Positions 5,061 to 26,608 are shown, numbered from the stretch's first letter. The stretch is 37,059 nucleotides of DNA from Candidatus Shapirobacteria bacterium (GCA_028697345.1 JAQVFF010000001.1:1-37059); one strand, 5' to 3'. Notes: generated by a model from the sequence alone, not told the origin. Translations and numbers: made by a program.

Positions 5061-5816
5061 ATGAAAAGAGGATTATTTCGACTGACGTTATTTATTGTTT
5101 TCTTTTTTTTGTTTAACCAACAGGCACGTAGCGCTTGTAATAGTTTTTCAGCCAGCACTAGTACCAATAGTGCCCACGTTTCCGTAAGGGCATCTGGGTG
5201 TGATCCTGACGGTAGATACTTGGTTCAAATAATTCAAAATGACAACGTCATTGAGGCCAATGAATTTTTTGTAAACACAGGCGAGGGTGAGGCAACTTTT
5301 TATTTAAGCGAAGAAGGAAATTATCAAGCTCGATTGTTCTTTGCAACCGATCTAATTGCTTCAACAAACTTTTCGATCCAAAATACTGTTCCCTTGAGTT
5401 GTGGTGATCCCTGTAATCCTAATGACTTAAATTGTCCTCCGGAATGTCCCTCAAGAAGCGTGGGTGCTGGTACTGCTTGGTATTGCCTTAGACCAGAAGA
5501 CTCTTATCCTGGAGAACCTGAGCCTATCGTTCAAGAAGGTTGTGTCGAAACTGCTCTTGGCTGTATTCCAGGCAATCATGAAGAGATGGTTAAATGGATA
5601 TTCCCTTATCTTTTAGGCCTGGGTGGGTTATTAGCCTTTGGCTTAATTGTCTTCTCCGGTATTCAAATATTAACCTCGGGAGGCAATCCAGAAAAAATCC
5701 AAGGTGCCAAAGAGACCATCACTTCAGCCATAACCGGATTACTGTTTATTATCTTGTCTTTATTTCTACTACGGCTGATTGGTATTAATATACTTGGATT
5801 GAAAGGGTTGAATTAA
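5061..5816 (+). CDS. pilin paralog 0: exported beta-rich plus Cys-rich N-terminal module fused to a C-terminal TrbC/VirB2-like T4SS pilin domain
   Basis: The ORF track starts at GTG 5019. ATG 5061 gives a signal peptide, MKRGLFRLTLFIVFFFLFNQQARS/AC. The C-terminal 90 aa (..YLLGLGGLLAFGLIVFSGIQILTSGGNPEKIQGAKETITSAITGLLFIILSLFLL..) aligns with the seven downstream pilin-like ORFs. Confidence 0.75.
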   Translation: MKRGLFRLTLFIVFFFLFNQQARSACNSFSASTSTNSAHVSVRASGCDPDGRYLVQIIQNDNVIEANEFFVNTGEGEATFYLSEEGNYQARLFFATDLIASTNFSIQNTVPLSCGDPCNPNDLNCPPECPSRSVGAGTAWYCLRPEDSYPGEPEPIVQEGCVETALGCIPGNHEEMVKWIFPYLLGLGGLLAFGLIVFSGIQILTSGGNPEKIQGAKETITSAITGLLFIILSLFLLRLIGINILGLKGLN

Positions 5817-5850
5817 CAAAACAAACACTTTATATTAAAATAAAAAAGAA

Positions 5851-6198
5851 ATGATCAAAAAAGGCTCTTTGTTGGCACAAACAGTTAGTTTACCTGATTA
5901 CTCCGATATCACCGGAATCGAAAGCAATGCTCCTATTAGGGGTTGGACCAACATCGGCCAAATCGTATCTTCGGCGCTTACTTATGTCTTTCCTATTGCC
6001 GGCATTTTAGTTTTTATTTACCTTATTTATGGGGGGATAAATCTTATGATCGCTATTGGCAACGAAGAAGGCATTAGGGAAGGTAAAGCCAAAATCACCA
6101 ATGCCTTGATTGGGTTTGTTATTATTTTTGTTGCCTACTGGATAGTCCAAGCCTTGGAAATAGTTTTGGGTGTTACCTTGCTCGACTGGGGTACTTAA
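5851..6198 (+). CDS. TrbC/VirB2-like T4SS pilin paralog 1
   Basis: 115 aa. Shows the helix / charged loop / helix core shared by the array (..IYLIYGGINLMIAIGNEEGIREGKAKITNALIGFVIIF..). Confidence 0.8.
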   Translation: MIKKGSLLAQTVSLPDYSDITGIESNAPIRGWTNIGQIVSSALTYVFPIAGILVFIYLIYGGINLMIAIGNEEGIREGKAKITNALIGFVIIFVAYWIVQALEIVLGVTLLDWGT

Positions 6199-6233
6199 TT
6201 TCAAAATAACTAAAAAAATAATAATCTAAACTA

Positions 6234-6569
6234 ATGAATCACGATAATATATTGGCTGTTGACATTGGGACAGATTTCAAAATTACTCCAAACATGGGAA
6301 TTGGAGAAGCTAATCAATTTAGATCTATCGGCGGCCTCATTTCAACCGTTTTGCCTAATGTTTATCTCTTGGCCGGTCTGATATTGTTGTTCTTCTTGAT
6401 TTTCGGCGGTTTGGCAGTTATATTGGGAGCAGGAAAGGGTAATCAAGAACAGGTTGAAAAAGGCAAAAAAGTTTTAACCGGCACCCTAATTGGGTTTTTG
6501 GTTGTTTTTGCCAGTTTTTGGGTTGTTCAAATTTTAGGAATTATTACCGGAGTAAAAATCTTTAATTAA
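6234..6569 (+). CDS. TrbC/VirB2-like T4SS pilin paralog 2
   Basis: 111 aa. Core ..FLIFGGLAVILGAGKGNQEQVEKGKKVLTGTLIGFLVVF... Confidence 0.8.
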   Translation: MNHDNILAVDIGTDFKITPNMGIGEANQFRSIGGLISTVLPNVYLLAGLILLFFLIFGGLAVILGAGKGNQEQVEKGKKVLTGTLIGFLVVFASFWVVQILGIITGVKIFN

Positions 6570-6584
6570 ACTAAAAATAAAAAA

Positions 6585-6929
6585 ATGAACATTCTACAGG
6601 TTGTTGGTACAATTCAACCTCCTAGTCAAATCACCCCAATAGAAGAGGGAGGCTTAGGTAGTTTCTTAAAAAATATTTTTATTCTTTTGATTGTCGGGGC
6701 GGGGATATTTGCTCTTTTTAATTTCATCCGAGCCGGTTACGCCTATATGGGTGCCAAAGACGATAAAGAAAAAATTAAAGAAGCTACTGCCATGATTATT
6801 AATAGTATTATTGGTCTACTGATTGTTGCCTCTGCTTTTGTAATTGCCGCCCTGGTTGGCCAATTGTTCTTTGGCCGTTGGGATTTTATTATCAGGCCGA
6901 CAATTTTGGGACCAGGAGCATCAGAATAG
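6585..6929 (+). CDS. TrbC/VirB2-like T4SS pilin paralog 3
   Basis: 114 aa. Core ..FNFIRAGYAYMGAKDDKEKIKEATAMIINSIIGLLIV... C-terminal tail ..FIIRPTILGPGAS. Confidence 0.8.
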   Translation: MNILQVVGTIQPPSQITPIEEGGLGSFLKNIFILLIVGAGIFALFNFIRAGYAYMGAKDDKEKIKEATAMIINSIIGLLIVASAFVIAALVGQLFFGRWDFIIRPTILGPGASE

Positions 6930-6948
6930 TTAATGTAAAATTATTTTT

Positions 6949-7314
6949 ATGAGATTTTTTATCAATAAAGTTTTCGCCCAAACTCAAATAGGAGATTTTT
7001 CAGAAGGACCATGGATAGTTCCAAGAGGAAACGATCTTGGTGGCCAAATAGCCGACATTGTTTCCGTTGTTATTGGTATTTTAACGGTTCTGGCTATTAT
7101 TTGGTTTATTATTGAATTCGTTGTTTCCGGCTATATGTTAATTAGTTCTACCGGAGACCAAGAAAAAACCGCTGAAGCCAAAAAAAGACTAACTCAGTCA
7201 CTTATCGGCTTGGTTATTGTTCTTAGCGCTATCGTCCTAATTAATGTCATTGCCTACATTTTCAATATTGATTTCTTAAATATTGGTGAATATCTTAACA
7301 ACTTAAGTTTTTAA
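6949..7314 (+). CDS. TrbC/VirB2-like T4SS pilin paralog 4
   Basis: 121 aa. Core ..FVVSGYMLISSTGDQEKTAEAKKRLTQSLIGLVIVL... Confidence 0.8.
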   Translation: MRFFINKVFAQTQIGDFSEGPWIVPRGNDLGGQIADIVSVVIGILTVLAIIWFIIEFVVSGYMLISSTGDQEKTAEAKKRLTQSLIGLVIVLSAIVLINVIAYIFNIDFLNIGEYLNNLSF

Positions 7315-7319
7315 AAAAC

Positions 7320-7697
7320 ATGGCCATCTTAACTTTAATTGCCGATCGGATCCAAAATCCACTTCTTCCTGATCAAGTATCGACTATGGACCAAACCCCG
7401 GCCATACTTAGCCAAACCTTAAGCAATGTTTTGACCCTGCTATTAATCGGTGCCGGAGTAGCTTTTTTTTTCATGTTTGTTGCCGGAGGATTAAGATGGA
7501 TTTTATCAGCCGGAGATAAAGAAAAAGTTGAAGGAGCCAAAAAGCAAATTTCTTCGGCCATAATCGGTTTAGTATTAATCTTGCTGGTCTTTGCTGTTGT
7601 CAGTTTAATTAGAACTCTTTTTGGCATCAATTTAGTGAGGTTTAACTTGCCCAGATTATTTAGTGGACCAAGTAGACTTGTTTTTGTGACCCTGTAA
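7320..7697 (+). CDS. TrbC/VirB2-like T4SS pilin paralog 5
   Basis: 125 aa. Core ..FFFMFVAGGLRWILSAGDKEKVEGAKKQISSAIIGLVLIL... Closest paralog of the next gene. Contains a T9 run at 7463-7471. Confidence 0.8.
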   Translation: MAILTLIADRIQNPLLPDQVSTMDQTPAILSQTLSNVLTLLLIGAGVAFFFMFVAGGLRWILSAGDKEKVEGAKKQISSAIIGLVLILLVFAVVSLIRTLFGINLVRFNLPRLFSGPSRLVFVTL

Positions 7698-7832
7698 CGG
7701 GCAGATGGACAGGATCAGGTTGTGTCCCAGGACAAGCAGGAGCAAACTGTCAATAATAAATATCACTTAGTTTAAAAATTAGATTCTTAGTATTTTTTAT
7801 ATTAAAATAAAGAAAGAAGGGAGGTGAAAGAA

Positions 7833-8213
7833 ATGAATAATGTTTTAAATAGGGTTGGTTCGGCTATACTGGGAGTTGTTTACGCCCAAGAAATCGCCAT
7901 TCAACCGCCAGACAGTGCTGGGACCCTAAACACCATTACTGTTGAAAATTTAATTTCCGGAACCATCACTTTAGTTTTCATTGCCGCTTCCTTGGTTTTT
8001 TTCTTTATGCTAGTGGCTGGAGGCATTAAGTGGATGATGGCCGGAGGCGATAAAGAAAAAGCCGGCGAAGCTCGAAGCCAATTAACTTCAGCTCTAATTG
8101 GTTTGATTGTTATCTTTCTGGCTTGGGCCATTTCTAAATTATTAGAAACCTTGTTTGGTGTTAATATTTTGGGAGGGTTCAGAATTCCTAATTTTTTTGG
8201 TCCAGCTTCTTAA
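7833..8213 (+). CDS. TrbC/VirB2-like T4SS pilin paralog 6
   Basis: The track starts at GTG 7824. ATG 7833 sits about 10 nt after a strong SD (AAGGGAGG, 7815-7822). Core ..FFFMLVAGGIKWMMAGGDKEKAGEARSQLTSALIGLIVIF... Confidence 0.8.
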   Translation: MNNVLNRVGSAILGVVYAQEIAIQPPDSAGTLNTITVENLISGTITLVFIAASLVFFFMLVAGGIKWMMAGGDKEKAGEARSQLTSALIGLIVIFLAWAISKLLETLFGVNILGGFRIPNFFGPAS

Positions 8214-8221
8214 AATAAGAT

Positions 8222-8548
8222 ATGACCCTTACCAGTTTTTTAACAGGTGTTAGCGTTTTGGCTCAAGATGATAGTGATGTTCATCAGATTCAAGACATTG
8301 AAGAAATAGTTAGTCGGCTTTTAGGACTTGTTGTTCCGTTTGTTGGAATACTCTTGTTGTTAATGTTAATCGCCGGGGGTTTTCAATATATTACCTCCGG
8401 CGGAGAAACGGAACAGGCTCAAAAAGCCAAAAAAACTTTAACTTATGCCTTTTTTGGCCTAGTAGTAGTTTTGGGTGCTTGGTTAATAATTAGACTATTA
8501 GAGGAATTCACGGGACTTAACCTAACAACCTTCCAAATCCCTCGTTAA
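8222..8548 (+). CDS. TrbC/VirB2-like T4SS pilin paralog 7
   Basis: 108 aa. Core ..LMLIAGGFQYITSGGETEQAQKAKKTLTYAFFGLVVVL... Confidence 0.8.
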   Translation: MTLTSFLTGVSVLAQDDSDVHQIQDIEEIVSRLLGLVVPFVGILLLLMLIAGGFQYITSGGETEQAQKAKKTLTYAFFGLVVVLGAWLIIRLLEEFTGLNLTTFQIPR

Positions 8549-8621
8549 GATTTTGCTCTTCTTGCCTCAAGAGGTTATTTTTGCTAAATTGAATTTAAGG
8601 TCTTGTGTAACTAGTCAAAAA

Positions 8622-10982
8622 ATGAAAAAAAAGTTCTCTTTTGTTTTTCCGTTGGTGCTTGTTTTTATTTTTTTATGTTCCCCTAGCCCTAGCCATGCCC
8701 AACAAGGTTTCGGTTTTAATATTCATGGTCTGGCTAAAGAGTCTGAAGATTTCATTAGTTGTACTTTGGATTGGCTGGGACAAAATTGTAATACTACTAT
8801 CGTCAGGCTTTGGGGCTACCAAAGCACTTTTAGTATAAATGGTGTTAATAACCTCCAAAAAGTTTTAGATGCCGCTCCGGCTAATATAAAATTTATTGTT
8901 GCTCTGGAAGATTTTCCTTTTGGACCTGCTGTTAGCAATTCTGGAAACTGGTTTTCCTCCGGATATAGAAGTCAATACCGAAATTATGTTCAGACAATCG
9001 TTAACAAATATAAAAATGATGATCGAATTTTGGTTTGGGAAATTATGAACGAACCTCATTGCAAGGGAGATTCGAGTTGTTTGGGAGCGCTTTATAATTT
9101 CATGTACGATATGGCCGGATTAATTAAATCCATTGATCCTTCGACCCATGTTTCTCCGGGTTTAATGGGCGGAGAAATACCTTGGTCAGAATACAACAGA
9201 ATCAATAACATTCCGGCAATTACCGCCACCTCGTGTCACTACAATGCCGATACCAACAATGTCAGCACTTGTTTGGAAGCAACAAATTACAAGGGAAATG
9301 TTAGCTTTTTTTATGTCGGGGAAGCAGGTTATTTGGGAAACGCTAATTGTTCCGGCGGCGGTTGCACTAATGATGATTGTACTAACTGTTGCGACTTAGC
9401 CAGTCTTCAGCAACGCGCCAATCAAATTAATCAAGACAGAAATACTCTCCTTGGGTCAGGAGCAAACGCTTTTTTAGTTTGGCAATTTTCTCCACCAAGG
9501 AACCCTCTTTTAATCTGTGATCGATTTTCTGTTTTTCCTTCAGACCCAGTCTGTCAAGGACAACAGCCGTTTACCTGCAGTCCTTCATCAAGCAGGGGAA
9601 TGGTTATTTCCGGTTCCAGAAATATTTGTGCCGATCTTGAAATAACTAAAACCGATAAGCAAGAGGCCACTTCTACCCCAATTACTGGCGGGACCTCCTG
9701 GGGAAAAAAGGCAGTGGCGGCGACTATCATACTTGATGATGCAAAATTTCCCGATTTTAACAGATTCCAACAATCAATGTCTCTTGGTTTAAACAAGCTT
9801 TTACCTCAAGAACTAGCCCAAAACATCAGCTTGGCTGGTGATGTTGAATTAAAATTCAAACATATTCCTTTATCCTTTAATGAAGACGGCACTCCTGTTC
9901 AGGAATATTCTGAATGTGAAGATCTTCCCAGGGGTCCGGCACAATTATCCGCTAACCTTTGGGGGAGACTAACCTCTTTAAGGGGTCTTTGCGGCTTTTT
10001 GGGAACCTGTGACCCTGTTGCCGATTTTCAATTTCAGCTGGAAGAAACACAATATCCCGGCTGTGATTATATTGCCAGCTGTGAACCGGCAGACCGGAAC
10101 TTGGCCGACAAAAATCTATCCATACCAGAACCAGAAGAGACAACATTCAGTTTTCTTGCTTGGTTTAAGAGAATAATATCGTATATCGAAGACCTTATTT
10201 CTAGAATAGGAAAAAAAACCACTGAAGATGAGGTTAGGGTACTGGTTCTTAGCCGCAGTAACCTTCCCGGAGCCTCGGTTTTAGCTGATTCTTCCAAATT
10301 TTTACAAAAATCCTTGTTTGAGGAAACAGTGGAACTGATTAGATCAAGAGGGGGGACCCAAGCTTTAAATGATGATTTTGACTATACTTTTGCCCTTAGT
10401 CCGGAAAGCAATATTCAAGAACAAGGCCGTTTTTATGGAATTGAACCCATGTGGAAAAACTATTGTCTTCATCTTTGCGGCAGTCTTCCCGAGGGAACAA
10501 TTCAAACCTTGGGCGACCAAATTTGTCCTTCTTGTAATCCCGAAGATTACAAAACTCCCAGTAGGCCCATACCAAAACCGGATAATTTGCCAGACGGATG
10601 CCACTGGGACCCTTATGTTGGCGGTTGCGACTACTACGACTGTGTTGTCGGAGAAACATTATCAGACGGAACAATCTGTCAACGAAGCTGTGAATTAGAC
10701 CCAATATGCGAAAGCGGACTTTGTACTAGAAACAAACTTTATACCAAACCCTATCTTCCTAACGGAACCTACTGCCCGAATAAATACTGCCAGCCGGGAG
10801 AGTGTTATTGGCTCCATTTTAGACACCCTAGCAGTTACTACTATCCCGACCAGGGTCTGCCGGAATCAAGTTATCCTTGGGGTCCCTGGTATACCAAGAA
10901 CCCCGATGTCTGCACCCGAGGCAACAATGTAGGCTGTAACCCGGATTGTTGCCTGGGATCAAGAACGGAACAATATGATTAA
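8622..10982 (+). CDS. secreted glycoside hydrolase family 5 (clan GH-A, mannanase/cellulase-like) with a C-terminal Cys-rich region of about 450 aa
   Basis: The track starts at TTG 8553. ATG 8622 gives the signal peptide MKKKFSFVFPLVLVFIFLCSPSPSHA/QQ. GH5 blocks: ..TTIVRLWGY.., acid/base ..LVWEIMNEPHC.., nucleophile candidate ..FFYVGEAGY... The rest of the protein is dense in Cys (..CHWDPYVGGCDYYDCVVGE..CQRSCELDPICESGLC..GCNPDCCLGS). Confidence 0.8.
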   Translation: MKKKFSFVFPLVLVFIFLCSPSPSHAQQGFGFNIHGLAKESEDFISCTLDWLGQNCNTTIVRLWGYQSTFSINGVNNLQKVLDAAPANIKFIVALEDFPFGPAVSNSGNWFSSGYRSQYRNYVQTIVNKYKNDDRILVWEIMNEPHCKGDSSCLGALYNFMYDMAGLIKSIDPSTHVSPGLMGGEIPWSEYNRINNIPAITATSCHYNADTNNVSTCLEATNYKGNVSFFYVGEAGYLGNANCSGGGCTNDDCTNCCDLASLQQRANQINQDRNTLLGSGANAFLVWQFSPPRNPLLICDRFSVFPSDPVCQGQQPFTCSPSSSRGMVISGSRNICADLEITKTDKQEATSTPITGGTSWGKKAVAATIILDDAKFPDFNRFQQSMSLGLNKLLPQELAQNISLAGDVELKFKHIPLSFNEDGTPVQEYSECEDLPRGPAQLSANLWGRLTSLRGLCGFLGTCDPVADFQFQLEETQYPGCDYIASCEPADRNLADKNLSIPEPEETTFSFLAWFKRIISYIEDLISRIGKKTTEDEVRVLVLSRSNLPGASVLADSSKFLQKSLFEETVELIRSRGGTQALNDDFDYTFALSPESNIQEQGRFYGIEPMWKNYCLHLCGSLPEGTIQTLGDQICPSCNPEDYKTPSRPIPKPDNLPDGCHWDPYVGGCDYYDCVVGETLSDGTICQRSCELDPICESGLCTRNKLYTKPYLPNGTYCPNKYCQPGECYWLHFRHPSSYYYPDQGLPESSYPWGPWYTKNPDVCTRGNNVGCNPDCCLGSRTEQYD

Positions 10983-11030
10983 CTCTCTCATTTGTTGACA
11001 AACAAAATAAAAACTTTTATTCTTAAACTA

Positions 11031-12521
11031 ATGAAAAGACAACTTCTTTTAGTTACCTTATTTATTTTTGCTTTTTGCTTCTTATTTGTCCGCAACGCTC
11101 AGGCTCTTGTTTCTGGAACAGATCTTGAGACAGAATTAGAATCCAGTAATTGGCAACTTGGCAGTCATACTTTTGGTACTGTAACCAGAATTACCGACTC
11201 TTTAAGTATTTTGATTGCTGGAAGCAGTAGCAACGAAACAGTTAACCAAGCGGTTGGATCGGGAGCAATTCAAGCAACCGGCAACCTAATTGCCGCCCTA
11301 TACTCTCATCCTCCAGCTTCATCGATAGAATATTTTGCTGACCTTGGAAGAAGTCTAGATATTATTAAGCCTACTTATGCCCAAGGAATAGGCTTTAACG
11401 GTCTAAGACCGATTTTAAGTCTTTGGAAAAATTTCCGCAACATTGCTTATTTTTTCTTTATCCTGGTATTTATTATCCTTGGTTTTGCTATTATGTTCCG
11501 ATTAAAAATTAACCCCCAAATGGTCGTTACTATTCAAGCGGCAATTCCTAAGGTTATTACTGCCCTAATTTTGGTAACATTTTCTTACGCTATTGCCGGA
11601 CTATTAATCGATCTAATGTATCTGGTAACAGCAATTGGAATATCGGCAATCGGAGGCGGAGATCTTTTCCTAGAAGGTGTTTTACAGTTCTTACAAGACT
11701 TAGGAATCTCACCAGGGGGAATAGAAAATCTAAATATGTTGACCTTTTCTTTTTTCTTTTGGGGAAGAGCCAGTAGTAGTATTAATCAAATTTCACAAAT
11801 GTTCACTCCTGCTTCTCTTATTGCTAGCATTCTTGGAATACAAATACCGCAAGCTGTTGAACAGATTTTATCAGTCTTTCCTACCATCCCTTGGTTAAAT
11901 CCCGTAGGATCCATTCTTAGGTTAGTATTATCCATAATAATACTTTTTATCTTTTTTAAAATCTTTATAAGCCTCATTCTTTGCTACATTAGAATTCTAC
12001 TATTAATAATAACCGCTCCGCTACAGTTGATGATGGGGGCAATACCGGGCTTTAATACTTTAGGTAAATGGATAAAGGAATTAGTCGTTAACCTTTTACC
12101 TTTCTCGGTTATTGTAATTTTAATTTCCCTAACCGGTGTAATTTTAAATGCCGTGGCCGGAAATTATCAAAACTTCTGGATGCCGCCAGTAATTAGACAT
12201 CCCCTTGCCAGCGCTGACACTATTGGGGCCATAATTTCATTCGGCATTCTCTTGCTATTAGCCAGGGTTCCTGACATAATCAGAAATATGTTTGAACAAA
12301 AACCATTTGAATATGGAACAGCAATCGGACAGGCGTTGGGAGCACCGGCAGCACTTGGCGGGAAAGCAATTAGGAGCGTAGCCCAAACTGCAGAATCCAT
12401 TAGTGATGCCACAGGACCACAGGGTTGGGCAAAAAGAACCTTGGGTCATTTCAGATCTGATGGTAAGAAAGAAGAGCCTCCTGCTAAGCCTGGAAATCTC
12501 GAAAGTATCAAATCAACCTAG
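11031..12521 (+). CDS. polytopic membrane protein, VirB6/TrbL-like T4SS channel component (assigned from architecture and context)
   Basis: The track starts at TTG 10992. ATG 11031 gives the signal peptide MKRQLLLVTLFIFAFCFLFVRNAQA/LV. It has an exported N-domain of about 100 aa, at least 6 long hydrophobic helices and a hydrophilic C-tail. Its size and position match VirB6-type proteins of Gram-positive T4SS loci. Confidence 0.55.
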   Translation: MKRQLLLVTLFIFAFCFLFVRNAQALVSGTDLETELESSNWQLGSHTFGTVTRITDSLSILIAGSSSNETVNQAVGSGAIQATGNLIAALYSHPPASSIEYFADLGRSLDIIKPTYAQGIGFNGLRPILSLWKNFRNIAYFFFILVFIILGFAIMFRLKINPQMVVTIQAAIPKVITALILVTFSYAIAGLLIDLMYLVTAIGISAIGGGDLFLEGVLQFLQDLGISPGGIENLNMLTFSFFFWGRASSSINQISQMFTPASLIASILGIQIPQAVEQILSVFPTIPWLNPVGSILRLVLSIIILFIFFKIFISLILCYIRILLLIITAPLQLMMGAIPGFNTLGKWIKELVVNLLPFSVIVILISLTGVILNAVAGNYQNFWMPPVIRHPLASADTIGAIISFGILLLLARVPDIIRNMFEQKPFEYGTAIGQALGAPAALGGKAIRSVAQTAESISDATGPQGWAKRTLGHFRSDGKKEEPPAKPGNLESIKST

Positions 12522-15227: not shown

Positions 15228-16079
15228 ATGAACCAACACCCTATTCCACAACACATTTCTTCTTACCAGTTTCGTCTGATAGGGGAGATGACTCTGGAAC
15301 AATTTGGCAAGGTTGCCGGCGGGTGTATTATCGCCCTGGTTTTTTACGCCCTACCCTTGCCAGGCTTTGTTAAATGGTTTTTGATCATTCTATCGGCCTC
15401 TTCTGGAGCCTTATTTGCCTTTGTCCCAGTTGAGGGCCGACCCTTGGAAACTTGGATTATTTCTTTTATTAAATCAATTTATTCACCAACCGAATATGTT
15501 TGGGAAAAGTCACCGGTTGATTTTTTCTTTACTAGAACCGATGACGATTTTTCTAAAAAAGAGATTTTACCCCAAAAGGAAACTGCCCGATCTTTGTCAG
15601 TAAAAGAACTGGCCCTCTTACAAGCATTGTCGGAACAAAAAGATTTTTACAGCCAAGATGAACTAAACCATGCTCAAGCACTGTTAGGGCTTTTTCAACA
15701 AACCACCGCTTCAGGAAAAAGCCCAATCAGTAAACAACCGGTAAAGCCAGAAGCGGCTCAAAAAGAGGCTAGTTTCAAAGAAAATCTGCCTTTTCCCAGC
15801 ACTCCAGATCAGCCAAATATTTTGGTCGGCATGGTAATCGATAAAAACGGCAAAATTTCTGAAGGGGCGATCGTGGAAATCAAAGATCAGGGCGGTAATA
15901 CTGTCCGGGCAATGCGAACCAACAAATTAGGCCAATTCCGATCTGTTTCACCTTTGCCCGATGGCCAATATCAAATCAGCACTGAAAAAACCGGTCTTAA
16001 TTTTGATATAATGAAAATCCAGTTAAAGGGTGAAATTGTTCCTCCAGTTGAAATTAGAGAAACTGGACTAATCAATTAA
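15228..16079 (+). CDS. PrgI-family (VirB3-like) T4SS membrane protein with a C-terminal carboxypeptidase-regulatory-like beta-sandwich
   Basis: 283 aa. N-terminus ..SSYQFRLIGEMTLEQFGKVAGGCIIALVFYALPLPGFVKWFLIILSASSGALFAFVPVEGRPLETWIISFIK.. matches the PrgI pattern. C-terminus ..GMVIDKNGKISEGAIVEIKDQGGNTVRAMRTNKLGQFRSVSPLPDGQYQIS... Confidence 0.7.
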   Translation: MNQHPIPQHISSYQFRLIGEMTLEQFGKVAGGCIIALVFYALPLPGFVKWFLIILSASSGALFAFVPVEGRPLETWIISFIKSIYSPTEYVWEKSPVDFFFTRTDDDFSKKEILPQKETARSLSVKELALLQALSEQKDFYSQDELNHAQALLGLFQQTTASGKSPISKQPVKPEAAQKEASFKENLPFPSTPDQPNILVGMVIDKNGKISEGAIVEIKDQGGNTVRAMRTNKLGQFRSVSPLPDGQYQISTEKTGLNFDIMKIQLKGEIVPPVEIRETGLIN

Positions 16080-16175: not shown

Positions 16176-16880
16176 ATGCCTGCCGTTCCAATCCGTTCTT
16201 CTACACAAGATGCTCTACCCATAGAAGATATCCGCGATGATTTGGTTGTCTTAAAAGACGGTTCTGCCGCTTTAATTCTTCAGGTCAACGCCATTAATTT
16301 CAGCTTATTATCAGAAAAAGAACAAGATGCAATCATCTATGCTTATGCGGGCCTGCTTAATTCTCTTAATTTTTCCATTCAAATCATTATCCGCTCTCAA
16401 AAAAAAGATATTACCGGCTATTTATCTCTACTGGAAAAAGCTAAAGCTGGTCAAAATAATTCGTTATTAAAAGATCTAATTAATAAATATCAAGCTTTTA
16501 TTAGAGAAACGGTTACCCAAACAGAAATTTTAGATAAAAAGTTTTATCTGGCGATTCCTTTCTCGGCCCTAGAGTTAGGCACTGGTCAGGTTGCTTCAAG
16601 TGTCTTAGATCAATTCTTACCTGGTAAAAAAAAGACTAAAACAACCCTCAACTTTGACCGGGTGGTAGAAAAAGCCAAAACCAGTCTAGAACCCAAAAGA
16701 GACCACTTAATCCGATTACTTGGTCGAATTGGACTAGTTGCCCAACAATTAACTACCAATGAATTAATTCGACTTTTCTTTAGAGTTTACAACCCTGACG
16801 CCAAAATTGTTGACCATGCCCTAACCAAAGAATATACCAGTCCGATTATTAAAGATGATGATTCTATCCAAAAAAAATGA
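16176..16880 (+). CDS. stand-alone VirB4 N-terminal-domain-like protein (no ATPase domain)
   Basis: 234 aa. ..STQDALPIEDIRDDLVVLKDGSAALILQVNAINFSLLSEKEQDAIIYAYAGLLNSLNFSIQIIIRS.. resembles the N-terminal block of Gram-positive VirB4 proteins (Tn916 Orf16 / ICEBs1 ConE type), from memory. Its stop overlaps the VirB4 start (ATGA, 16877-16880). Confidence 0.5.
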   Translation: MPAVPIRSSTQDALPIEDIRDDLVVLKDGSAALILQVNAINFSLLSEKEQDAIIYAYAGLLNSLNFSIQIIIRSQKKDITGYLSLLEKAKAGQNNSLLKDLINKYQAFIRETVTQTEILDKKFYLAIPFSALELGTGQVASSVLDQFLPGKKKTKTTLNFDRVVEKAKTSLEPKRDHLIRLLGRIGLVAQQLTTNELIRLFFRVYNPDAKIVDHALTKEYTSPIIKDDDSIQKK

Positions 16881-18895
16881 TTAGTCTTCCTAAGGTTTTC
16901 AGTAAAAAAAACCAACCTGAAAAAACAGTACCCGCTAAAGGCAGCCAAGAACAACGAACCCTGGGTGATGGAGTATTGGTGATTAAGGACTTACTAGCCC
17001 CGTCAGCTATCGAGGTCGATTTCAACCACCTAAGAATTGATAATAAATATTTCCGCTCGTTGTTCGTGGCTGGCTACCCCCGATTTGTTAATGCTAATTG
17101 GTTGTCACCTCTGATCAACTTTGATCACACCATGGATTTGGCAATGTTTATTTATCCGGTAGAAATCAAAGGAACTCTAGATGATTTAAGAAGAAAAATT
17201 GCTGAAATGGAGGCTGAGATTGCCACCGACATTCAGCGAGGCAAGGTGGTTGACCCTTCAACTAAGGCAAAATTAGAAGATGCCCTTTCTCTTCAGGAGC
17301 AATTAACCAAGGGGGTAGAGCGATTTTTCCAGTTTGGCCTTTACTTAACTATTCCCGGCAACAGCGTTAAGGAGCTGGACGAGACCACCAAGGAAATTAA
17401 ATCAACCCTGGGATCACTAATGATCATCGCCAAAGATGCTACCCTGCAGATGGAAGAAGGCTTTCAAACCACTCTGCCAATAGGAGACAGCAAGCTCAAT
17501 ATCACTAGAAACATGGATACTACTTCACTGGCAACTACTTTTCCTTTTACCTCATCAGAACTGACTGCCAATGAAGGCATTTTATACGGCATTAACCAAC
17601 ATAACGGCTCTTTGGTTATTTTTGACCGGTTTAACTTGGAAAACGCTAATTCGGTTGTTTTTGGTAAATCCGGCTCCGGTAAAAGCTATATGATTAAACT
17701 GGAAGCCTTGCGATCACTAATGATGGGTACAGAAATAATTATTATCGATCCGGAAAACGAATATGAAAAATTAGCCGAAGCGGTTAGTGGAGAATATATC
17801 AGCTTCGGTTTTGGTTCCAGCGCCAAAATTAATCCTTTTGATCTACCGCAAAAATATACTGACCAGAACCAAACTCTCCAAGAAAACCATTTAGGATTCA
17901 AGTTATTATCTCTTCAGTCGCTTTTTAAAATTATGATGGGAAAAATGGATTCTGATGAAGAAGCAATATTGGATCGGGCGCTGGTAGCTACTTATAAAGG
18001 CAAGGGAATTACTCCCGATCCGGCCAGCCAAAAAAATGAAGCCCCCTTGTTAGAAGATCTTTACAAAACCCTTCTGGGCATGGAAACGGCCAAAGCCCAA
18101 ACCTTATCTAACCGACTGGAAAAATTTGTTAAGGGTTCACTGGTGGGAATTTTTGATCAACGCTCTAATGTTAATCTTAAAAATCCCTTTACTGTTTTTT
18201 CCTTAAAAAATGTTGAAGGTTCATTGCGGCCCATTGTAATGTTTATTATCTTGGATTATATCTGGACCAAGGTTCAAGACGATCTTAAAAAGAGAGTGGT
18301 TATTGTTGATGAAGCCTGGTATTTAATGCGTTATAAAGATTCTGCCCAATACTTAGAATCAATTGCCAAGCGAGCCAGGAAATATTACTTAGGCCTAACT
18401 ACCATCACTCAAGATGCTCCCGACTTCTTAGCCTCGCCTTACGGCAAATCAATCATTACTAATTCTTCTATTCAAATTCTAATGAAACAGCACCCGGCAG
18501 CGATTGACCAGATTGGAGAAATTTTTTACCTTTCTCAAGGTGAAAAAAATCTTTTGCTTTCGGCTGATATTGGTGAAGGATTATTTTTTGCCGGAGAAAA
18601 CCATGTTGCTATTCAAGTAATCTCTTCAAACGAGGAACATAAACTGGTCAGCACTGACCCAAGAGAAAAAACAGCTAAACTCAAGGTTCCGGAAGAGGGT
18701 AACAAAACTGTTCAGACCCAATATCAGACACAAATTAAACCAGAACAATCCCAAAACCAAAACCCGCCTAACCAACCAAGCAAAAGCACTCTTGGCGCTA
18801 ATGCTCCCAAACCGGATAGTCAAACAGCTAACAATACCGAATTTGTTGAAAATGAAACCCAACCCCCAATTAAAATTAACACCAATCTCGAATAG
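16877..18895 (+). CDS. virB4: VirB4-family T4SS ATPase
   Basis: 672 aa. N-domain ..LLAPSAIEVDFNHLRIDNKYFRSLFVAGYPRFVNANWLSPLINFDHTMDLAMFIYP... Walker A VVFGKSGSGKSY. Walker B RVVIVDEAW. Ends in a Q/N/P-rich low-complexity tail of about 70 aa. Confidence 0.9.
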   Translation: MISLPKVFSKKNQPEKTVPAKGSQEQRTLGDGVLVIKDLLAPSAIEVDFNHLRIDNKYFRSLFVAGYPRFVNANWLSPLINFDHTMDLAMFIYPVEIKGTLDDLRRKIAEMEAEIATDIQRGKVVDPSTKAKLEDALSLQEQLTKGVERFFQFGLYLTIPGNSVKELDETTKEIKSTLGSLMIIAKDATLQMEEGFQTTLPIGDSKLNITRNMDTTSLATTFPFTSSELTANEGILYGINQHNGSLVIFDRFNLENANSVVFGKSGSGKSYMIKLEALRSLMMGTEIIIIDPENEYEKLAEAVSGEYISFGFGSSAKINPFDLPQKYTDQNQTLQENHLGFKLLSLQSLFKIMMGKMDSDEEAILDRALVATYKGKGITPDPASQKNEAPLLEDLYKTLLGMETAKAQTLSNRLEKFVKGSLVGIFDQRSNVNLKNPFTVFSLKNVEGSLRPIVMFIILDYIWTKVQDDLKKRVVIVDEAWYLMRYKDSAQYLESIAKRARKYYLGLTTITQDAPDFLASPYGKSIITNSSIQILMKQHPAAIDQIGEIFYLSQGEKNLLLSADIGEGLFFAGENHVAIQVISSNEEHKLVSTDPREKTAKLKVPEEGNKTVQTQYQTQIKPEQSQNQNPPNQPSKSTLGANAPKPDSQTANNTEFVENETQPPIKINTNLE

Positions 18896-18906: not shown

Positions 18907-21900
18907 ATGGCTGAAGCAAAAAAACTGATTTTGTCAAAGGAGTCAGCACAATTTATCCTTGAGGGCCTAAACTTCTTTAAAAAAAATCCCCAAGCCAAAG
19001 AGTGGCACAAACTAGATAAAGACACTTTTTTAGTTTTAGCCCGTGACGTTGCTCAATTTTACCCTGATAAAGAAGAAAGTTTGGAAGAATATTTGCTTCG
19101 TTTTGAATCTTTCTTGAGAAGAATTATTAATAGTCAGGAACTGGCCCCATCTATTCCTGAAAACCTGAACCAACTAGTTGAAGCTTTTGAGGCCTTCCAA
19201 AAAGAGCAAGACGCTGATATCAATTTGAAAAAAACTGCTATTGTTACCAGCCAGGATGTTAGCTTGGAAGACTGGATTAAAAACTTACAAGAGAAGCATC
19301 TGGCCCAAAGAATAGCAAAGGAAGTTGAAGAGGCGGTTGCTCCCATCGGTCTCCCCGAGGAACAAAAAGAGACAGTCAAAGAAACTTTAACCCAGGAAAT
19401 TACCGCTTCTGTTCCTATGGTGGTTATTACCAGGCCAGAACAAGAAAAATCAATAAAAGAAAAAATAAGTCGTGCTTTTGAAAAAGAAAAAACGACCGTT
19501 GTTTCGTCAACAAAACAGGCCTTAGTCAATCAACAATTACAAGAACTTGCTGATCGAGCCAGGTTTTTGACTGTCCCAATCGCCGTTAAAACTCAACCAT
19601 CACCAACACAAAAAACCCTTGAGGAAACAATTGCTAAAGTTCTTCGACAGCAAACCCCAATCAAAGAAGAGGCCGCTGTTCAAAAAGTCGCCCAGGCAAT
19701 TACTCAAGTAATCAGCCAAAAAGTACCCAAGTTAGATAAATCAGAACAGGCGGGTTTATCTGCACTAGAAAAATTTGCCCTAGTCGAAAACACGATTAAT
19801 GCTTCACTGCCAGAAATTGTTCAGGCCTTAACTAACCCTGAAATCACCAGCCTGCCAATAGAAAAAACAACCATTAATCCTCAAGACGGTCAGGAATTCT
19901 TGCAATTATTAACCGGCCAAATTAACCAACCGGTTCTTGATTTGTCCTCGTCGCTTAAAGAAGATTTAAACCGGACCAGGCAACAAAAGGTATCTTTTCT
20001 AAGACCTGAAACAAAAATCATTTTTGACCAACTGGAAGAAAATCCACTATTACCTTATCAGCTTATTCCCCAAGAAGAACTTCAGCCGCTAGGAAACCAA
20101 ATAAGGGCTGTTGTCAATTACCGCGGTATCAGTCCAGGGTCGGCGGAAATTATTCAATATCAAAACGAGGAGGCGGCTGGTTTAAGGTCCGCTATAGAAG
20201 GAAAAACCAGTTTTTGGTGGCAAAATCAAACAAACCGTTTTCAGGCTCAAGGGGCAGAAGAGGCAATTATCACGCAAACTACCAAAAGATTTAATCTCCA
20301 ATTGCATTTTGAAGAAAAATTTCCCCAATTTAAGAATTTCTATCAACAGGCTTTCAGTTGGTCCGGACCGCGAAAATGGTTTAATCAAGTTACCAGCCCT
20401 ATCGCCGGTTTAGTTAAAGAGAAAGTTGGTTCTTGGTGGCAAAAAACCGGTCTAGCTAAAAAGCTGGCCCAAAGAGCCGAATCAAAAGCAAGTCTTTTTT
20501 TCAAAAAAACCCTCGGTTCTTTTAGTATTTTTAAGGCTGGCGTTAAAAAAACTCTTCAAGAAGGAGCCAAAAAAGGTGTCACCAAGGCTATTTCTTGGCT
20601 GGCCACAAAATTAGCCGCCACAAAACTTGGAGCAATCTTGGGCTCTATTGCTCCGGGAATAGGTAATGCTATCGGGGCGGCGGTTGGTTTTGTGATTGAT
20701 GTTGGTCTTGGTCTAATTAGGGGAGGTTTTAGGTTGTTTTCCAATGTTTTGCAAAAAGTGTCCGGAGGCGAAACTGAAGCCGAAAAGACCATTAAGGCTA
20801 ATTTTGGACCCTTGGGTAAAATTGCTCTCTCTCCAATTACTTTAATTGTTATTGGTGTGCCAATATTGATTATTCTTTTGGCTTTAGGACTGTTCCAAAT
20901 CGAGGAAGGGGCTTTTGTTGTTGATGTTGCTGAGCATGCCGTTGTTTTTTATGGTTCTTGTTATGTTGAAGATATTCATCAAACTGATGTTATTACTGAT
21001 GAAAACTTGGCTATTTTTATAGCCAGAAATAAAGCCGCCTACCCTAATAGTTTAATCGAAGAAAAAATTCATCAGGTAATTGCTGAAAGTATTTCGGTCG
21101 GGTTTAATCCCGCATTGGCAATAGCAATTTGGGGCGAAGAAAGCCACTTTTCGGATTACTCTAATCCTAGGGTGGTTCCGGGAAGAGATTTTGGTTGCGG
21201 AGTTTATTGTTCTAGTAACCAACCAAGCAACTTTGATGAATCGTTGGCTTGCTTTGTCGCTAAACGCACCAGTTGTAATAGTGCCTGTCTTAGCAGGGCT
21301 ACTTTCGCAGAATTTATGGAATGCTATGGACCAGTTGCCGAAAATCCAAACTTTATCTCTAATACATTAAAATTTTATCAACAACTCGTTCCTTCGGGTC
21401 CAGGAGTAGTTGTTTGTCCAGGAGGAACCACTGGAGAGTTTGCTTCTCAGCTTCTTAACCACCTTATTGCCTGCTATGGCAATATCATTAATCGGGCAAG
21501 CTATAACGATCAGGGTGTTTGTTTACTTGGCCGAGGAGTTTCTCAATCAAGCGTGCAACATATTACCTGGTCTGTTGGTCAATTTAGCGCCCTTCAGTGT
21601 GTTGGCTTTGCCAAGGCTGTCGAAGTAGAAACCGGCGCTGGCAGCTTAGGTTTTGTTCGCGGAGCCTATGGTGATGCCGCCAATTATTATCGTCCTTTAA
21701 CAGGCTATCAACAAGTTCCCAAAAGCCAACAGAATGTGATGGTTGGAGATTTGGCCTTTTTCTCCGGGACTATTGGCCATGTTGGAGTTGTTGTTGATGT
21801 TGCTCCCGATATGTCCTGGTTTATAATCGCTCAAGCAATTGGTTACAGGAGCGGATCTGCTTACGGGTTAATAAACGAATCAGGAAGAATTCATATAACA

Positions 21901-21939
21901 TACAATTCTTTGTTGGGTTTTCTTAGACGAGCGCCATGA
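18907..21939 (+). CDS. T4SS-associated cell-wall hydrolase: long E/K/Q-rich N-region, Gly-rich/TM segments, SLT-like lytic transglycosylase motif and C-terminal CHAP peptidase (VirB1 / PrgK / CwlT analog)
   Basis: 1010 aa. Hydrophobic stretches ..LGAILGSIAPGIGNAIGAAVGFVIDVGLGLI.. and ..IALSPITLIVIGVPILIILLALGLFQI... ..FNPALAIAIWGEESHFS.. carries an SLT-type catalytic Glu context. CHAP Cys ..FSALQCVGFAKAV.. and His ..GDLAFFSGTIGHVGVVVDV... Confidence 0.75.
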   Translation: MAEAKKLILSKESAQFILEGLNFFKKNPQAKEWHKLDKDTFLVLARDVAQFYPDKEESLEEYLLRFESFLRRIINSQELAPSIPENLNQLVEAFEAFQKEQDADINLKKTAIVTSQDVSLEDWIKNLQEKHLAQRIAKEVEEAVAPIGLPEEQKETVKETLTQEITASVPMVVITRPEQEKSIKEKISRAFEKEKTTVVSSTKQALVNQQLQELADRARFLTVPIAVKTQPSPTQKTLEETIAKVLRQQTPIKEEAAVQKVAQAITQVISQKVPKLDKSEQAGLSALEKFALVENTINASLPEIVQALTNPEITSLPIEKTTINPQDGQEFLQLLTGQINQPVLDLSSSLKEDLNRTRQQKVSFLRPETKIIFDQLEENPLLPYQLIPQEELQPLGNQIRAVVNYRGISPGSAEIIQYQNEEAAGLRSAIEGKTSFWWQNQTNRFQAQGAEEAIITQTTKRFNLQLHFEEKFPQFKNFYQQAFSWSGPRKWFNQVTSPIAGLVKEKVGSWWQKTGLAKKLAQRAESKASLFFKKTLGSFSIFKAGVKKTLQEGAKKGVTKAISWLATKLAATKLGAILGSIAPGIGNAIGAAVGFVIDVGLGLIRGGFRLFSNVLQKVSGGETEAEKTIKANFGPLGKIALSPITLIVIGVPILIILLALGLFQIEEGAFVVDVAEHAVVFYGSCYVEDIHQTDVITDENLAIFIARNKAAYPNSLIEEKIHQVIAESISVGFNPALAIAIWGEESHFSDYSNPRVVPGRDFGCGVYCSSNQPSNFDESLACFVAKRTSCNSACLSRATFAEFMECYGPVAENPNFISNTLKFYQQLVPSGPGVVVCPGGTTGEFASQLLNHLIACYGNIINRASYNDQGVCLLGRGVSQSSVQHITWSVGQFSALQCVGFAKAVEVETGAGSLGFVRGAYGDAANYYRPLTGYQQVPKSQQNVMVGDLAFFSGTIGHVGVVVDVAPDMSWFIIAQAIGYRSGSAYGLINESGRIHITYNSLLGFLRRAP

Positions 21940-24831: not shown

Positions 24832-24860
24832 TTGACTTTTTGTGGAAAACTTTCTATTAT
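24832..24860 (+). promoter_or_regulatory. dnaA promoter candidate with a DnaA box in the spacer
   Basis: TTGACT (24832-24837), 17-nt spacer, TATTAT (24855-24860). The spacer contains TGTGGAAAA (24841-24849), one mismatch from the reverse complement of the TTATCCACA DnaA box. Lies 57 nt upstream of ATG 24917. Confidence 0.55.
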
Positions 24861-24916
24861 TGACTTACTCCTTTAAAGGGCCTGCTGGAAAAGTTTCTGC
24901 CGTTTTTAATAAAAAT

Positions 24917-26263: not shown

Positions 26264-26608
26264 AAGAAAACTTTGTGAATTAGTAAGGGTTGTTGTGGAA
26301 AGGTTAGAGGACAGTAATTATTTCTGTGGATAAATTAAATTCAATTTTTCCACAAATTTTAAAAAATTTTCCACAATAAAACCGTTGTTTTTCTAGTTTT
26401 TTAAGACAAACCAAAACCAAAACTAAAGACAAACTATAAGGTTTTTTTCTAAAAAATCTTATTATCCTGTCACTTTTTTAAAAATTAACAGTTTTTTCCT
26501 GTCTTAAATCAGGGTAATTCCACTTTTAAACAATCCCTAACACTAATACTACTATTTTAAATAATTTACTTTTATTATTAATAATAACTTTGATAAAATA
26601 CTTTTATT
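26264..26608. other. probable oriC: DnaA-box cluster plus AT-rich unwinding region in the dnaA-dnaN spacer
   Basis: Perfect box TGTGGATAA at 26325-26333. TGTGGAAAG at 26294-26302. TTTTCCACA at 26346-26354 and at 26367-26375, in the opposite orientation. Weaker TGTGAATTA at 26274-26282. Almost pure A/T from about 26540 to 26608. Confidence 0.75.

What the first reader, a model, noticed from the sequence alone, without database searches (positions are those of the whole stretch)
5061..8548. Eight tandem, strongly diverged VirB2/TrbC-like pilin paralogs
Eight consecutive same-strand ORFs, with gaps of 5-35 nt except one, share a helix / G-G / charged loop (..GD.EK...AK..) / ..IG(L/F).. helix core. 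They are otherwise highly divergent. Only paralogs 5 and 6 are close: about half of the core positions are identical by eye (FFFM(F/L)VAGG(L/I)(R/K)W..GDKEK). Classical T4SSs encode one major pilin. An eight-gene array suggests a heteropolymeric filament, minor or tip pilins, or a repertoire for host-range or antigenic variation.
Basis: partly seen in the sequence, partly recalled or inferred. Interest (0 to 1): 0.75.

Follow-up and report, generated by a model that had tools for sequence, protein, structure and literature searches.

The report
Known eight-gene Patescibacterial T4SS pilin array
The eight small genes are a real tandem array of VirB2-like pilins beside a type IV secretion system in a tiny Patescibacterium, but such arrays were described in 2023 and 2025, so this is another example, not a discovery.

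Summary
Eight same-strand ORFs (5061-8548) all match Pfam PF18895 (T4SS_pilin). Seven score above the curated cut-off and one falls 0.5 bit below it. Paralogs are 21-44% identical in the core. The closest pair is the 6th and 7th genes, not the 5th and 6th.

The contig is a public Candidatus Shapirobacteria (Microgenomatia) MAG whose genes NCBI already names "pilin". The array lies 7-10 kb from PrgI/VirB3, TrsD, VirB4 and a CHAP hydrolase, and about 16 kb from dnaA. This matches the Patescibacterial VirB2 arrays described by Quinonero-Coronel et al. 2025: 441 arrays of 2-11 genes, mean identity 25%, common in Microgenomatia. The six-pilin array of S. epibionticum scores essential (Wang et al. 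2023).

This analysis adds four points:
- All eight slots have collinear 1:1 orthologs in related genomes (48-77% identity), with dN/dS of about 0.25 or less.
- No paralogs share DNA repeats longer than 23 nt.
- The first gene fuses a variable FN3-like ectodomain to a conserved pilin anchor.
- Only slot 7 carries a canonical Shine-Dalgarno site.

These points favour a fixed set of non-redundant subunits over an antigenic-variation repertoire. Interest is low to moderate.

The parts
5061..5816 (+). Slot 1: Sec signal peptide, FN3-like beta-sandwich, Cys-rich linker and a C-terminal VirB2-like pilin hairpin (251 aa; alternative GTG start at 5019)
   Evidence: PF18895 scores 37.2 bits over residues 180-240. 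The AF2 model has pLDDT 86.7, with a beta-sandwich at 28-106 and helices at 173-205 and 210-239. Foldseek matches FN3 domains at E 4e-4, prob 1.0. Homologs keep the pilin domain at 70-84% identity, while the head varies and total length ranges from 138 to 433 aa.
5851..6198 (+). Slot 2 pilin (115 aa)
   Evidence: PF18895 37.4 bits. Orthologs are 67-73% identical at the same array position in L001 and L003.
6234..6569 (+). Slot 3 pilin (111 aa)
   Evidence: PF18895 27.3 bits. Orthologs are 73-75% identical. dN/dS is 0.09-0.17.
6585..6929 (+). Slot 4 pilin (114 aa)
   Evidence: PF18895 26.1 bits, just under the 26.6 cut-off. Orthologs are 69-77% identical at the same position. dN/dS is 0.06-0.21.
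6949..7314 (+). Slot 5 pilin (121 aa)
   Evidence: PF18895 38.8 bits. NCBIfam NF045849 (Mycoplasma ICE pilin-like) scores 45.7 bits, above its cut-off of 40. Orthologs are 68-74% identical.
7320..7697 (+). Slot 6 pilin (125 aa); closest paralog of slot 7
   Evidence: PF18895 41.2 bits. Core identity to slot 7 is 44%. Orthologs are 66-71% identical.
7819..7826 (+). Shine-Dalgarno GGAGGTGA before slot 7, within the only long (126 nt) intergenic gap of the array
   Evidence: Slot 7 is the only array gene with an SD. Slot-7 orthologs in L069, L005, L008, L014 and L015 also have one. Only three gene starts in the 37-kb window combine GGAGG with an ATG.
7824..8213 (+). Slot 7 pilin (129 aa from the GTG; the likely start is the ATG at 7833, 126 aa); candidate most-translated subunit
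   Evidence: PF18895 44.2 bits. Orthologs are 58-71% identical.
8222..8548 (+). Slot 8 pilin (108 aa)
   Evidence: PF18895 49.0 bits and TrbC PF04956 20.6 bits. The database copy (P0001) is 100% identical and NCBI names it 'pilin [Candidatus Shapirobacteria bacterium]'. AF2 predicts a helical hairpin, 20-58 and 63-97.
8553..10982 (+). Secreted Cys-rich (40 Cys) GH5-like protein, syntenic just downstream of the array (probable start ATG 8622)
   Evidence: Pfam Cellulase/GH5 at E 4.7e-7. It has a signal-like N-terminus and 40 Cys. A large gene occupies this position in L001, L003 and L005.
10992..12521 (+). Polytopic membrane protein (about 6 hydrophobic segments, no Pfam hit); candidate VirB6 analogue
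   Evidence: Hydropathy profile. No Pfam family. A similar-sized gene is syntenic in L001, L003 and L005. The VirB6 role is an inference only.
15228..16079 (+). PrgI/VirB3-like protein
   Evidence: Pfam PrgI PF12666 at 30.9 bits, above the cut-off of 27.
16176..16880 (+). TrsD / TraC-N-terminal-like protein (resembles the N-terminal part of VirB4)
   Evidence: Pfam TraC_F_IV at E 1e-5. Orthologs hit PF26593 TraC-like.
16877..18895 (+). VirB4-type ATPase
   Evidence: P-loop_TraG 104.8 bits, AAA_10 and DUF87.
18907..21939 (+). 1010-aa protein with a C-terminal CHAP domain (VirB1-like cell-wall hydrolase)
   Evidence: Pfam CHAP at 28.4 bits, above the cut-off of 26.
24842..27721 (+). dnaA and dnaN, marking the chromosomal origin region about 16 kb from the array
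   Evidence: Bac_DnaA 224.5 bits and the three DNA_pol3_beta domains.

Best explanation
The region is the pilin array of the chromosomal, origin-proximal type IV secretion system of a Candidatus Shapirobacteria (Patescibacteria, class Microgenomatia) genome. That system resembles the conjugation machinery of monoderm bacteria.

Shown here:
- Eight genes encode PF18895/VirB2-like two-helix membrane proteins.
- The eight are ancient, non-interchangeable paralogs. Each slot has a collinear 1:1 ortholog in related genomes and is under purifying selection.

Inferred mechanism:
- The proteins insert into the cytoplasmic membrane with the N-terminus outside.
- The VirB3/TrsD/VirB4 machine extracts them and assembles a heteromeric VirB2-type filament or stalk.
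- Slot 7, the only gene with a strong ribosome-binding site, is the bulk subunit.
- The other short pilins are minor, initiating or structural subunits.
- Slot 1 displays a variable FN3-like head on the outside or tip, for contact with the host bacterium.
- By analogy with S. epibionticum, where the homologous array scores essential for epibiotic growth, the structure serves host attachment or exchange and not conjugation. The window holds no coupling protein or relaxase.
For: All eight ORFs hit PF18895. PrgI, TrsD, VirB4, CHAP and dnaA/dnaN form the surrounding context. NCBI names the slot-8 protein 'pilin [Candidatus Shapirobacteria bacterium]'. Eight-gene arrays with the same order and flanks occur in L001, L003, L066, L012 and L013, and L069 has the same array plus a second slot-1-type gene. 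Every window paralog finds its best hit at the matching slot in L001, L003 and L013. In L012 slots 6 and 7 are barely distinguished. Orthologs are 48-77% identical against 20-51% for off-diagonal pairs. For slots 2-8, pN is 0.13-0.25 against pS 0.54-0.83 (saturated), so dN/dS is about 0.25 or less. Slot 1 has pN 0.34-0.41 against pS 0.74-0.85. No inter-paralog DNA repeat exceeds 23 nt. The slot-1 model is an FN3-like head plus a pilin hairpin at pLDDT 86.7, with a conserved anchor and a variable head among 143 homologs. The first gene carries an extension of at least 100 aa in 19 of 57 arrays. The SD is found only on slot 7 and its orthologs. No T4CP or relaxase domain was found. Literature: Patescibacterial arrays of 2-11 pilins, mean identity 25% (PMC12102498). 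SEML1_0014-0019 all score GD/ES/ES in Tn-seq (PMC10633639 Table S1).
Against: No filament has been seen for any Patescibacterial T4SS. The fold is a bare helical hairpin, and Foldseek gave no significant PDB match (best E 1.7; a conjugation pilin ranked only 34th). Homology to VirB2 therefore rests on HMM profiles alone. The TrbC/VirB2 Pfam model itself is below threshold. Slots 2-8 have leaders of only about 10-22 residues, unlike the long signal peptides of VirB2 or TraA, so processing is unknown. The SD argument for a 'major' subunit is indirect and fails in L012 and L013. Polar effects could inflate the Tn-seq essentiality of upstream array genes. dS is saturated, so the dN/dS values are only upper bounds.
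Confidence: 0.6

Rival explanations
1. The array is a repertoire for host-range or antigenic variation. The paralogs would be alternative, interchangeable major pilins, expressed one or a few at a time or diversified to match different hosts, as proposed for Bartonella trwL and Anaplasma virB2 arrays.
For: Paralogs are highly divergent, at 21-44% core identity. [quoted passage not shown] The slot-1 head is variable, and slot 1 is duplicated in L069.
Against: Number, order and identity of slots 2-8 are fixed across related genomes, with 1:1 orthologs at 58-77% identity and dN/dS of about 0.25 or less. There is no recent duplication, and no shared DNA segment longer than 23 nt for recombination or gene conversion. 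Gaps of 5-35 nt and no terminator signal above background suggest co-transcription, not individual switching. All six array pilins score essential in S. epibionticum. Variation is confined to the slot-1 head.
Confidence: 0.12
2. The proteins are not filament subunits. They would be membrane-embedded structural or channel components of a monoderm T4SS: small two-TM proteins forming a heteromeric ring or stalk base in the membrane, with no extended pilus.
For: Gram-positive-type T4SSs generally lack pili (PMC12102498, PMC12857230). All eight proteins also match NCBIfam NF045849, a pilin-like conjugal transfer protein of wall-less Mycoplasma ICEs. Only slot 5 exceeds that model's cut-off. No filament has been observed. 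The fold search cannot tell a pilin from any other helical hairpin.
Against: Membership of PF18895 and sub-threshold TrbC similarity. The slot-1 architecture puts a secreted FN3-like, disulfide-rich head at the N-terminus, which makes most sense on an exposed structure. A strong SD on one paralog fits one bulk polymer subunit.
Confidence: 0.22
3. One functional pilin plus decaying duplicates or spurious ORFs.
For: Slot 4 is just below the Pfam cut-off. Most slots lack a recognisable SD.
Against: All eight ORFs are intact and have intact orthologs in at least five other genomes. Purifying selection acts on each one. Most genes in this window lack an SD anyway.
Confidence: 0.02

Closest known systems
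Patescibacterial VirB2-like pilin arrays (Quinonero-Coronel et al. 2025, Microb Genom, PMC12102498; the S. epibionticum ML1 array SEML1_0014-0019, Wang et al. 2023, Cell, PMC10633639)
   Same: The protein family is PF18895, in tandem same-strand genes. The count of eight lies within the published range of 2-11. Identity (mean 29% in the core, maximum 44%) is close to the published mean of 25% and maximum of 54%. The neighbours are VirB4, TrsD and PrgI, the locus is near dnaA, there is no relaxase or T4CP, and the class is Microgenomatia.
   Different: Nothing differs in kind. This work adds details I did not find in the passages I searched of those papers: collinear slot-by-slot orthology, an FN3-like head on the first pilin, and an SD restricted to slot 7.
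VirB2/TrbC/TraA conjugative pilins of diderm T4SSs (Pfam PF04956; T-pilus, F-pilus)
   Same: A small protein with two hydrophobic helices joined by a short charged loop. It is encoded with VirB3 and VirB4. The inferred topology has the N-terminus outside.
   Different: The PF04956 model is below threshold (best 20.6 bits against 27.9). The host is a monoderm with no outer-membrane core complex. There are eight divergent paralogs in place of one major pilin. Leaders are short, and no VirB5 tip protein is recognised.
Tandem virB2/trwL amplifications in Bartonella (Trw) and Anaplasma phagocytophilum
   Same: Multiple VirB2-family genes sit in tandem next to a T4SS that mediates interaction with a host and not conjugation.
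   Different: Those arrays are cited as supporting antigenic or host-range variation (PMC12102498). Here the copies are ancient, each with 1:1 orthologs and no recombinogenic repeats.
Mbov_0395 / MMCAP2_0565 pilin-like conjugal transfer protein of Mycoplasma ICEs (NCBIfam NF045849)
   Same: All eight proteins match this profile over the whole two-helix core (E 4e-12 to 9e-3). Slot 5 exceeds the curated cut-off. The host is also a monoderm with an MPF_FATA-type system.
   Different: Seven of the eight are below the equivalog cut-off. As far as I know, it is a single gene in a mobile element and not a chromosomal array.

Membership tests
Pfam PF18895 T4SS_pilin | Score at or above the gathering threshold (26.6 bits) | tested here: met
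   Seven of the eight score 27.3-49.0 bits. Slot 4 scores 26.1 bits, at E 9e-6. Database copies of slot 8 and slot 1 carry a precomputed PF18895 annotation.
Patescibacterial VirB2 pilin array (PMC12102498) | Two to eleven pilin genes in tandem, or separated by one non-pilin gene | tested here: met
   There are eight contiguous genes with gaps of 5-126 nt.
Patescibacterial VirB2 pilin array (PMC12102498) | High divergence within the array (mean about 25%, maximum 54% identity) | tested here: met
   Core identity is 21-44%, mean 29%. Mean column identity over the full-length alignment is 26%.
Patescibacterial VirB2 pilin array (PMC12102498) | Located near virB4 and other MPF_FATA-like components in a Patescibacterial chromosome | tested here: met
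   PrgI, TrsD-like, VirB4 and CHAP proteins lie at 15.2-21.9 kb, and dnaA at 24.8 kb. The taxon comes from NCBI's name for the slot-8 protein.
VirB2/TrbC pilin (Pfam PF04956) | Score at or above the gathering threshold (27.9 bits) | tested here: not met
   The best scores are 20.6 bits (slot 8) and 15.9 bits (slot 2). The others give no hit.
VirB2/TrbC pilin (Pfam PF04956) | Helix-loop-helix hairpin fold resembling solved conjugative pilins | tested here: inconclusive
   AF2 predicts a hairpin. Foldseek against the PDB gives no hit at E of 0.001 or better. The archaeal conjugation pilin 8dfu ranks 34th with TMt 0.69. The PDB sequence-profile search found no pilin.
VirB2/TrbC pilin (Pfam PF04956) | Long N-terminal signal peptide removed before assembly | tested here: inconclusive
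   Slot 1 has a classical Sec signal peptide. Slots 2-8 have only 10-22 residue leaders, several ending in a conserved ..(L/F/Y)AQ. Cleavage cannot be tested here.
VirB2/TrbC pilin (Pfam PF04956) | Polymerises into an extracellular T4SS pilus | not testable with these tools
   This needs imaging or biochemistry. The reviews describe it as only a possibility for Patescibacteria (PMC12857230).
Antigenic/host-range variation pilin arrays (Bartonella trwL, Anaplasma virB2) | Lineage-specific amplification and turnover of copies, with similar copies able to recombine | tested here: not met
   Collinear 1:1 orthologs occur across genomes. The longest shared DNA segment is 23 nt at 74-87% identity.
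NCBIfam NF045849 Mbov_0395 pilin-like conjugal transfer protein | Score at or above the equivalog cut-off (40 bits) | tested here: not met
   Only slot 5 passes (45.7 bits). The others score 15.7-38.8 bits. The proteins are related to this family but are not members.

The most novel reading that the evidence does not exclude
The array encodes a truly heteropolymeric VirB2-type filament in a monoderm bacterium. The eight subunits would have fixed, non-redundant roles: an SD-boosted bulk pilin (slot 7), several minor or initiating pilins, and an FN3-headed adhesin pilin (slot 1). The variable head would set host specificity, replacing the missing VirB5 tip protein and PrgB-type adhesin. This would be the first T4SS pilus with a built-in adhesin-pilin fusion and a defined multi-subunit architecture.
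Probability: 0.3. Interest if true: 0.7.

Novelty: already known. Interest (0 to 1): 0.3.

Why it matters
Patescibacteria are a large part of bacterial diversity and live attached to other bacteria. Their T4SS is the only one reported as essential for survival of its bearer. Its pilin array is the one feature that sets it apart from all other monoderm T4SSs (PMC12857230). What the many pilins do is still open. This locus adds no new phenomenon. The comparative pattern (fixed orthologous slots, a head-bearing first pilin, one strongly translated slot) narrows the hypotheses toward a multi-subunit structure with a dedicated host-contact subunit. It also indicates which genes to tag or delete first in the tractable Saccharibacteria.

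Tried and rejected
- Foldseek of the slot-8 model against the PDB gave no significant match, because a helical hairpin is too generic.
- An HMM profile of slot-8 orthologs against PDB sequences gave only chance-level hits, to an archaeal flagellin and phage coat proteins at E 0.007 or worse.
- tblastn of slot 5 against 72,556 plasmids found nothing. I therefore could not support a link to conjugative plasmids of monoderms beyond the NCBIfam profile hit.
- The promoter and terminator scan of the array gave counts no higher than shuffled sequence, so operon structure remains an inference from the short gaps.
- dN/dS: synonymous sites are saturated in every available comparison (pS 0.45-0.85). 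Only an upper bound can be given, and site-specific positive selection on exposed segments could not be tested.
- I considered alternative genetic code 25 (UGA as Gly) to explain the short leaders. I rejected it because TAA stops lie immediately upstream of the starts.
- Rfam found nothing in the array. It found only a tmRNA fragment at the left end of the window.


Full report
**Observation**

The ORF list shows eight consecutive + strand ORFs between 5019/5061 and 8548. They are 251, 115, 111, 114, 121, 125, 129 and 108 aa long. The intergenic gaps are 34, 35, 15, 19, 5, 126 and 8 nt.

It has a hydrophobic helix ending in GG, a short loop G(D/N)xE(K/Q)..(A/G)K, and a second hydrophobic helix beginning ..(I/L/F)(I/T/F)G(L/F). 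Core identity between paralogs is 21-44%, with a mean of 29%.

- The closest pair (44%) is the 6th and 7th genes (7320-7697 and 7824-8213).
- The first gene carries about 170 extra N-terminal residues.

**Family assignment**

[quoted passage not shown] Seven exceed the 26.6-bit gathering score and slot 4 scores 26.1 bits. The classical TrbC/VirB2 model PF04956 is seen only below threshold, for slots 2 and 8.

All eight also match NCBIfam NF045849. This is a "pilin-like conjugal transfer protein" of Mycoplasma ICEs. Only slot 5 exceeds its cut-off.

AF2 predicts a helical hairpin for slot 8 at pLDDT 73.8. Foldseek and a PDB sequence-profile search gave no significant match. Structure is therefore compatible with a VirB2-type pilin but cannot prove it.

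**Context and origin**

The window is chromosomal, with these genes:
- A SpoIID-like gene lies upstream on the opposite strand.
- Downstream come a secreted Cys-rich GH5-like protein and a polytopic membrane protein without a Pfam family.
- A T4SS block follows: PrgI/VirB3-like (15228-16079), TrsD/TraC-N-like (16176-16880), VirB4 (16877-18895) and a 1010-aa CHAP-domain protein.
- Further on are pyruvate:ferredoxin oxidoreductase subunits, dnaA (24842-26263), dnaN and housekeeping genes.

No coupling protein or relaxase domain was found. The slot-8 protein is in the public collection at 100% identity on a 37,059-bp contig, where NCBI names it "pilin [Candidatus Shapirobacteria bacterium]".

**What is already known**

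Quinonero-Coronel et al. 2025 (PMC12102498) searched 3,035 Patescibacteria genomes with PF18895 and PF04956, among other profiles. They report:
- 441 VirB2 arrays of 2-11 pilin genes in 383 assemblies.
- A mean within-array identity of 25% and a maximum of 54%.
- T4SS genes frequently lying next to dnaA and dnaN.

Wang et al. [quoted passage not shown] Their Table S1 scores all six PF18895 genes, SEML1_0014-0019, as growth-defective and then essential. The 2025 FEMS review (PMC12857230) highlights this array as the unique feature of Patescibacterial T4SSs. The finding is thus an instance of a published phenomenon.

**Comparative analysis done here**

*Arrays in relatives.* Contigs carrying slot-8 relatives show the same locus with the same flanks. 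L001, L003 and L066 have eight pilins. L069 has nine, including a second slot-1-type gene. L005 and L008 have six.

In a scan of one genome per species, 57 loci carried four or more pilin ORFs, typically 5-9 per array. These include a few duplicate records.

*Slot orthology.* Each window paralog finds its best match at the same array position in L001, L003 and L013. Orthologs are 48-77% identical, against 20-51% for off-diagonal pairs. In L012 the diagonal also holds, except that slots 6 and 7 are barely distinguished.

The eight-fold duplication therefore predates the divergence of these Microgenomatia lineages. Slot orthology fades toward Saccharimonadia.

*Selection.* Nei-Gojobori counts for slots 2-8 give pN 0.13-0.25 against saturated pS of 0.54-0.83. 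That puts dN/dS at about 0.25 or less for every slot. Slot 1 has pN 0.34-0.41. None of the eight is a decaying copy.

*Recombination substrate.* The longest DNA segment shared between paralogs is 23 nt at 74-87% identity. There is no substrate for cassette recombination.

**Two finer features**

*Slot 1 is a fusion protein.*
- It has a classical signal peptide, a seven-strand beta-sandwich, a Cys-rich linker and the pilin hairpin. The AF2 model has pLDDT 86.7.
- The sandwich matches FN3 domains at Foldseek E 4e-4, prob 1.0.
- Among 143 homologs, the pilin anchor stays 70-84% identical. The head changes in sequence, and total length ranges from 138 to 433 aa.
- In 19 of 57 arrays the first gene has an extension of at least 100 aa.
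- A secreted, disulfide-rich head immediately before helix 1 implies that the N-terminus is outside the cell. That is the topology of VirB2-type pilins.

*Slot 7 alone has a canonical ribosome-binding site.*
- It is the only array gene preceded by a canonical GGAGGTGA, and it follows the only long gap.
- Slot-7 orthologs in L069, L005, L008, L014 and L015 share this, with weaker versions in L001, L003 and L066. L012 and L013 do not.
- Only three gene starts in the whole window combine GGAGG with an ATG.
- This suggests that slot 7 is the most strongly translated subunit.

**Interpretation**

The best-supported reading is a fixed set of non-redundant VirB2-like subunits for a T4SS-associated filament or stalk in a monoderm epibiont. 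It would have one probable bulk subunit, several minor ones and a head-bearing host-contact subunit.

Family membership, synteny, orthology and purifying selection are shown. Assembly into a filament, subunit roles and host contact are inferred.

The rivals stand as follows:
- A membrane-embedded, non-filamentous role cannot be excluded.
- An antigenic or host-range variation repertoire is disfavoured for slots 2-8. It remains possible for the slot-1 head.
- Pseudogene decay is refuted.

**Verdict**

The phenomenon is already in the literature, and this very contig is annotated accordingly. Interest is low to moderate (0.3). The residual value lies in the slot-orthology, FN3-head and single-SD observations. 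I did not find these in the passages I searched of the papers I consulted.

Noticed in passing
window 5061-5570 (N-terminal 170 aa of slot 1): The first pilin carries a signal peptide, an FN3-like beta-sandwich and a Cys-rich CGDPCNPND..CP.ECP linker ahead of a highly conserved pilin anchor. The head varies in length and sequence among 143 homologs. PMC12102498 reports that no adhesins were detected in Patescibacterial T4SS loci, so this head is a candidate for the missing adhesin.
   Followed up: partly
window 7698-7832: This is the only long intergenic gap in the array, and it ends in a canonical GGAGGTGA Shine-Dalgarno site before slot 7. An SD is otherwise rare in this window (three gene starts). 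Slot-7 orthologs of several related genomes keep it.
   Followed up: partly
window 5851-8548 (all short pilins): All eight pilins match NCBIfam NF045849, a pilin-like conjugal transfer protein of Mycoplasma ICEs, and slot 5 is above its cut-off. This hints that VirB2-like proteins do exist in monoderm MPF_FATA-type systems. The Patescibacterial pilins may therefore not have been co-opted from diderm T4SSs.
   Followed up: partly
window 5851-8300 (N-termini of slots 2, 5, 7 and 8): The N-terminal leaders are very short (10-22 aa). Several end in (L/F/Y)AQ, and this A is nearly invariant among slot-8 orthologs. A variable, indel-rich segment follows. This may be a short processed leader, unlike the long VirB2/TraA signal peptides.
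   Followed up: no
window 8553-10982: A secreted 809-aa protein with a GH5 cellulase-like domain and 40 cysteines sits directly after the array. A large gene occupies this position in relatives. It may be a host cell-wall or glycan-degrading factor linked to the T4SS.
   Followed up: no
window 10992-12521: A 509-aa protein with about six hydrophobic segments and no Pfam family, with a similar-sized gene at this position in relatives. It is a candidate for the VirB6 homologue reported as scarce in Microgenomatia (PMC12102498).
   Followed up: no
window 14735-15199: A '23S rRNA-intervening sequence protein' (PF05635) gene sits inside the T4SS locus, just upstream of PrgI. L003 and L066 have the same arrangement, and L066 also has a second copy on the other side of the array.
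   Followed up: no
window 1-249: The 3' part of a tmRNA gene (Rfam RF00023, 66 bits), cut off by the window edge. smpB lies nearby in the related loci L001 and L003.
   Followed up: no
L069 4968-6612: A close relative has two slot-1-type head-bearing pilins in tandem (270 and 246 aa), giving a nine-gene array. The head-bearing slot is the one that duplicates and diversifies. In the six-gene arrays of L005 and L008, a slot-1-type gene is encoded elsewhere on the same contig (P0103, P0077).
   Followed up: partly
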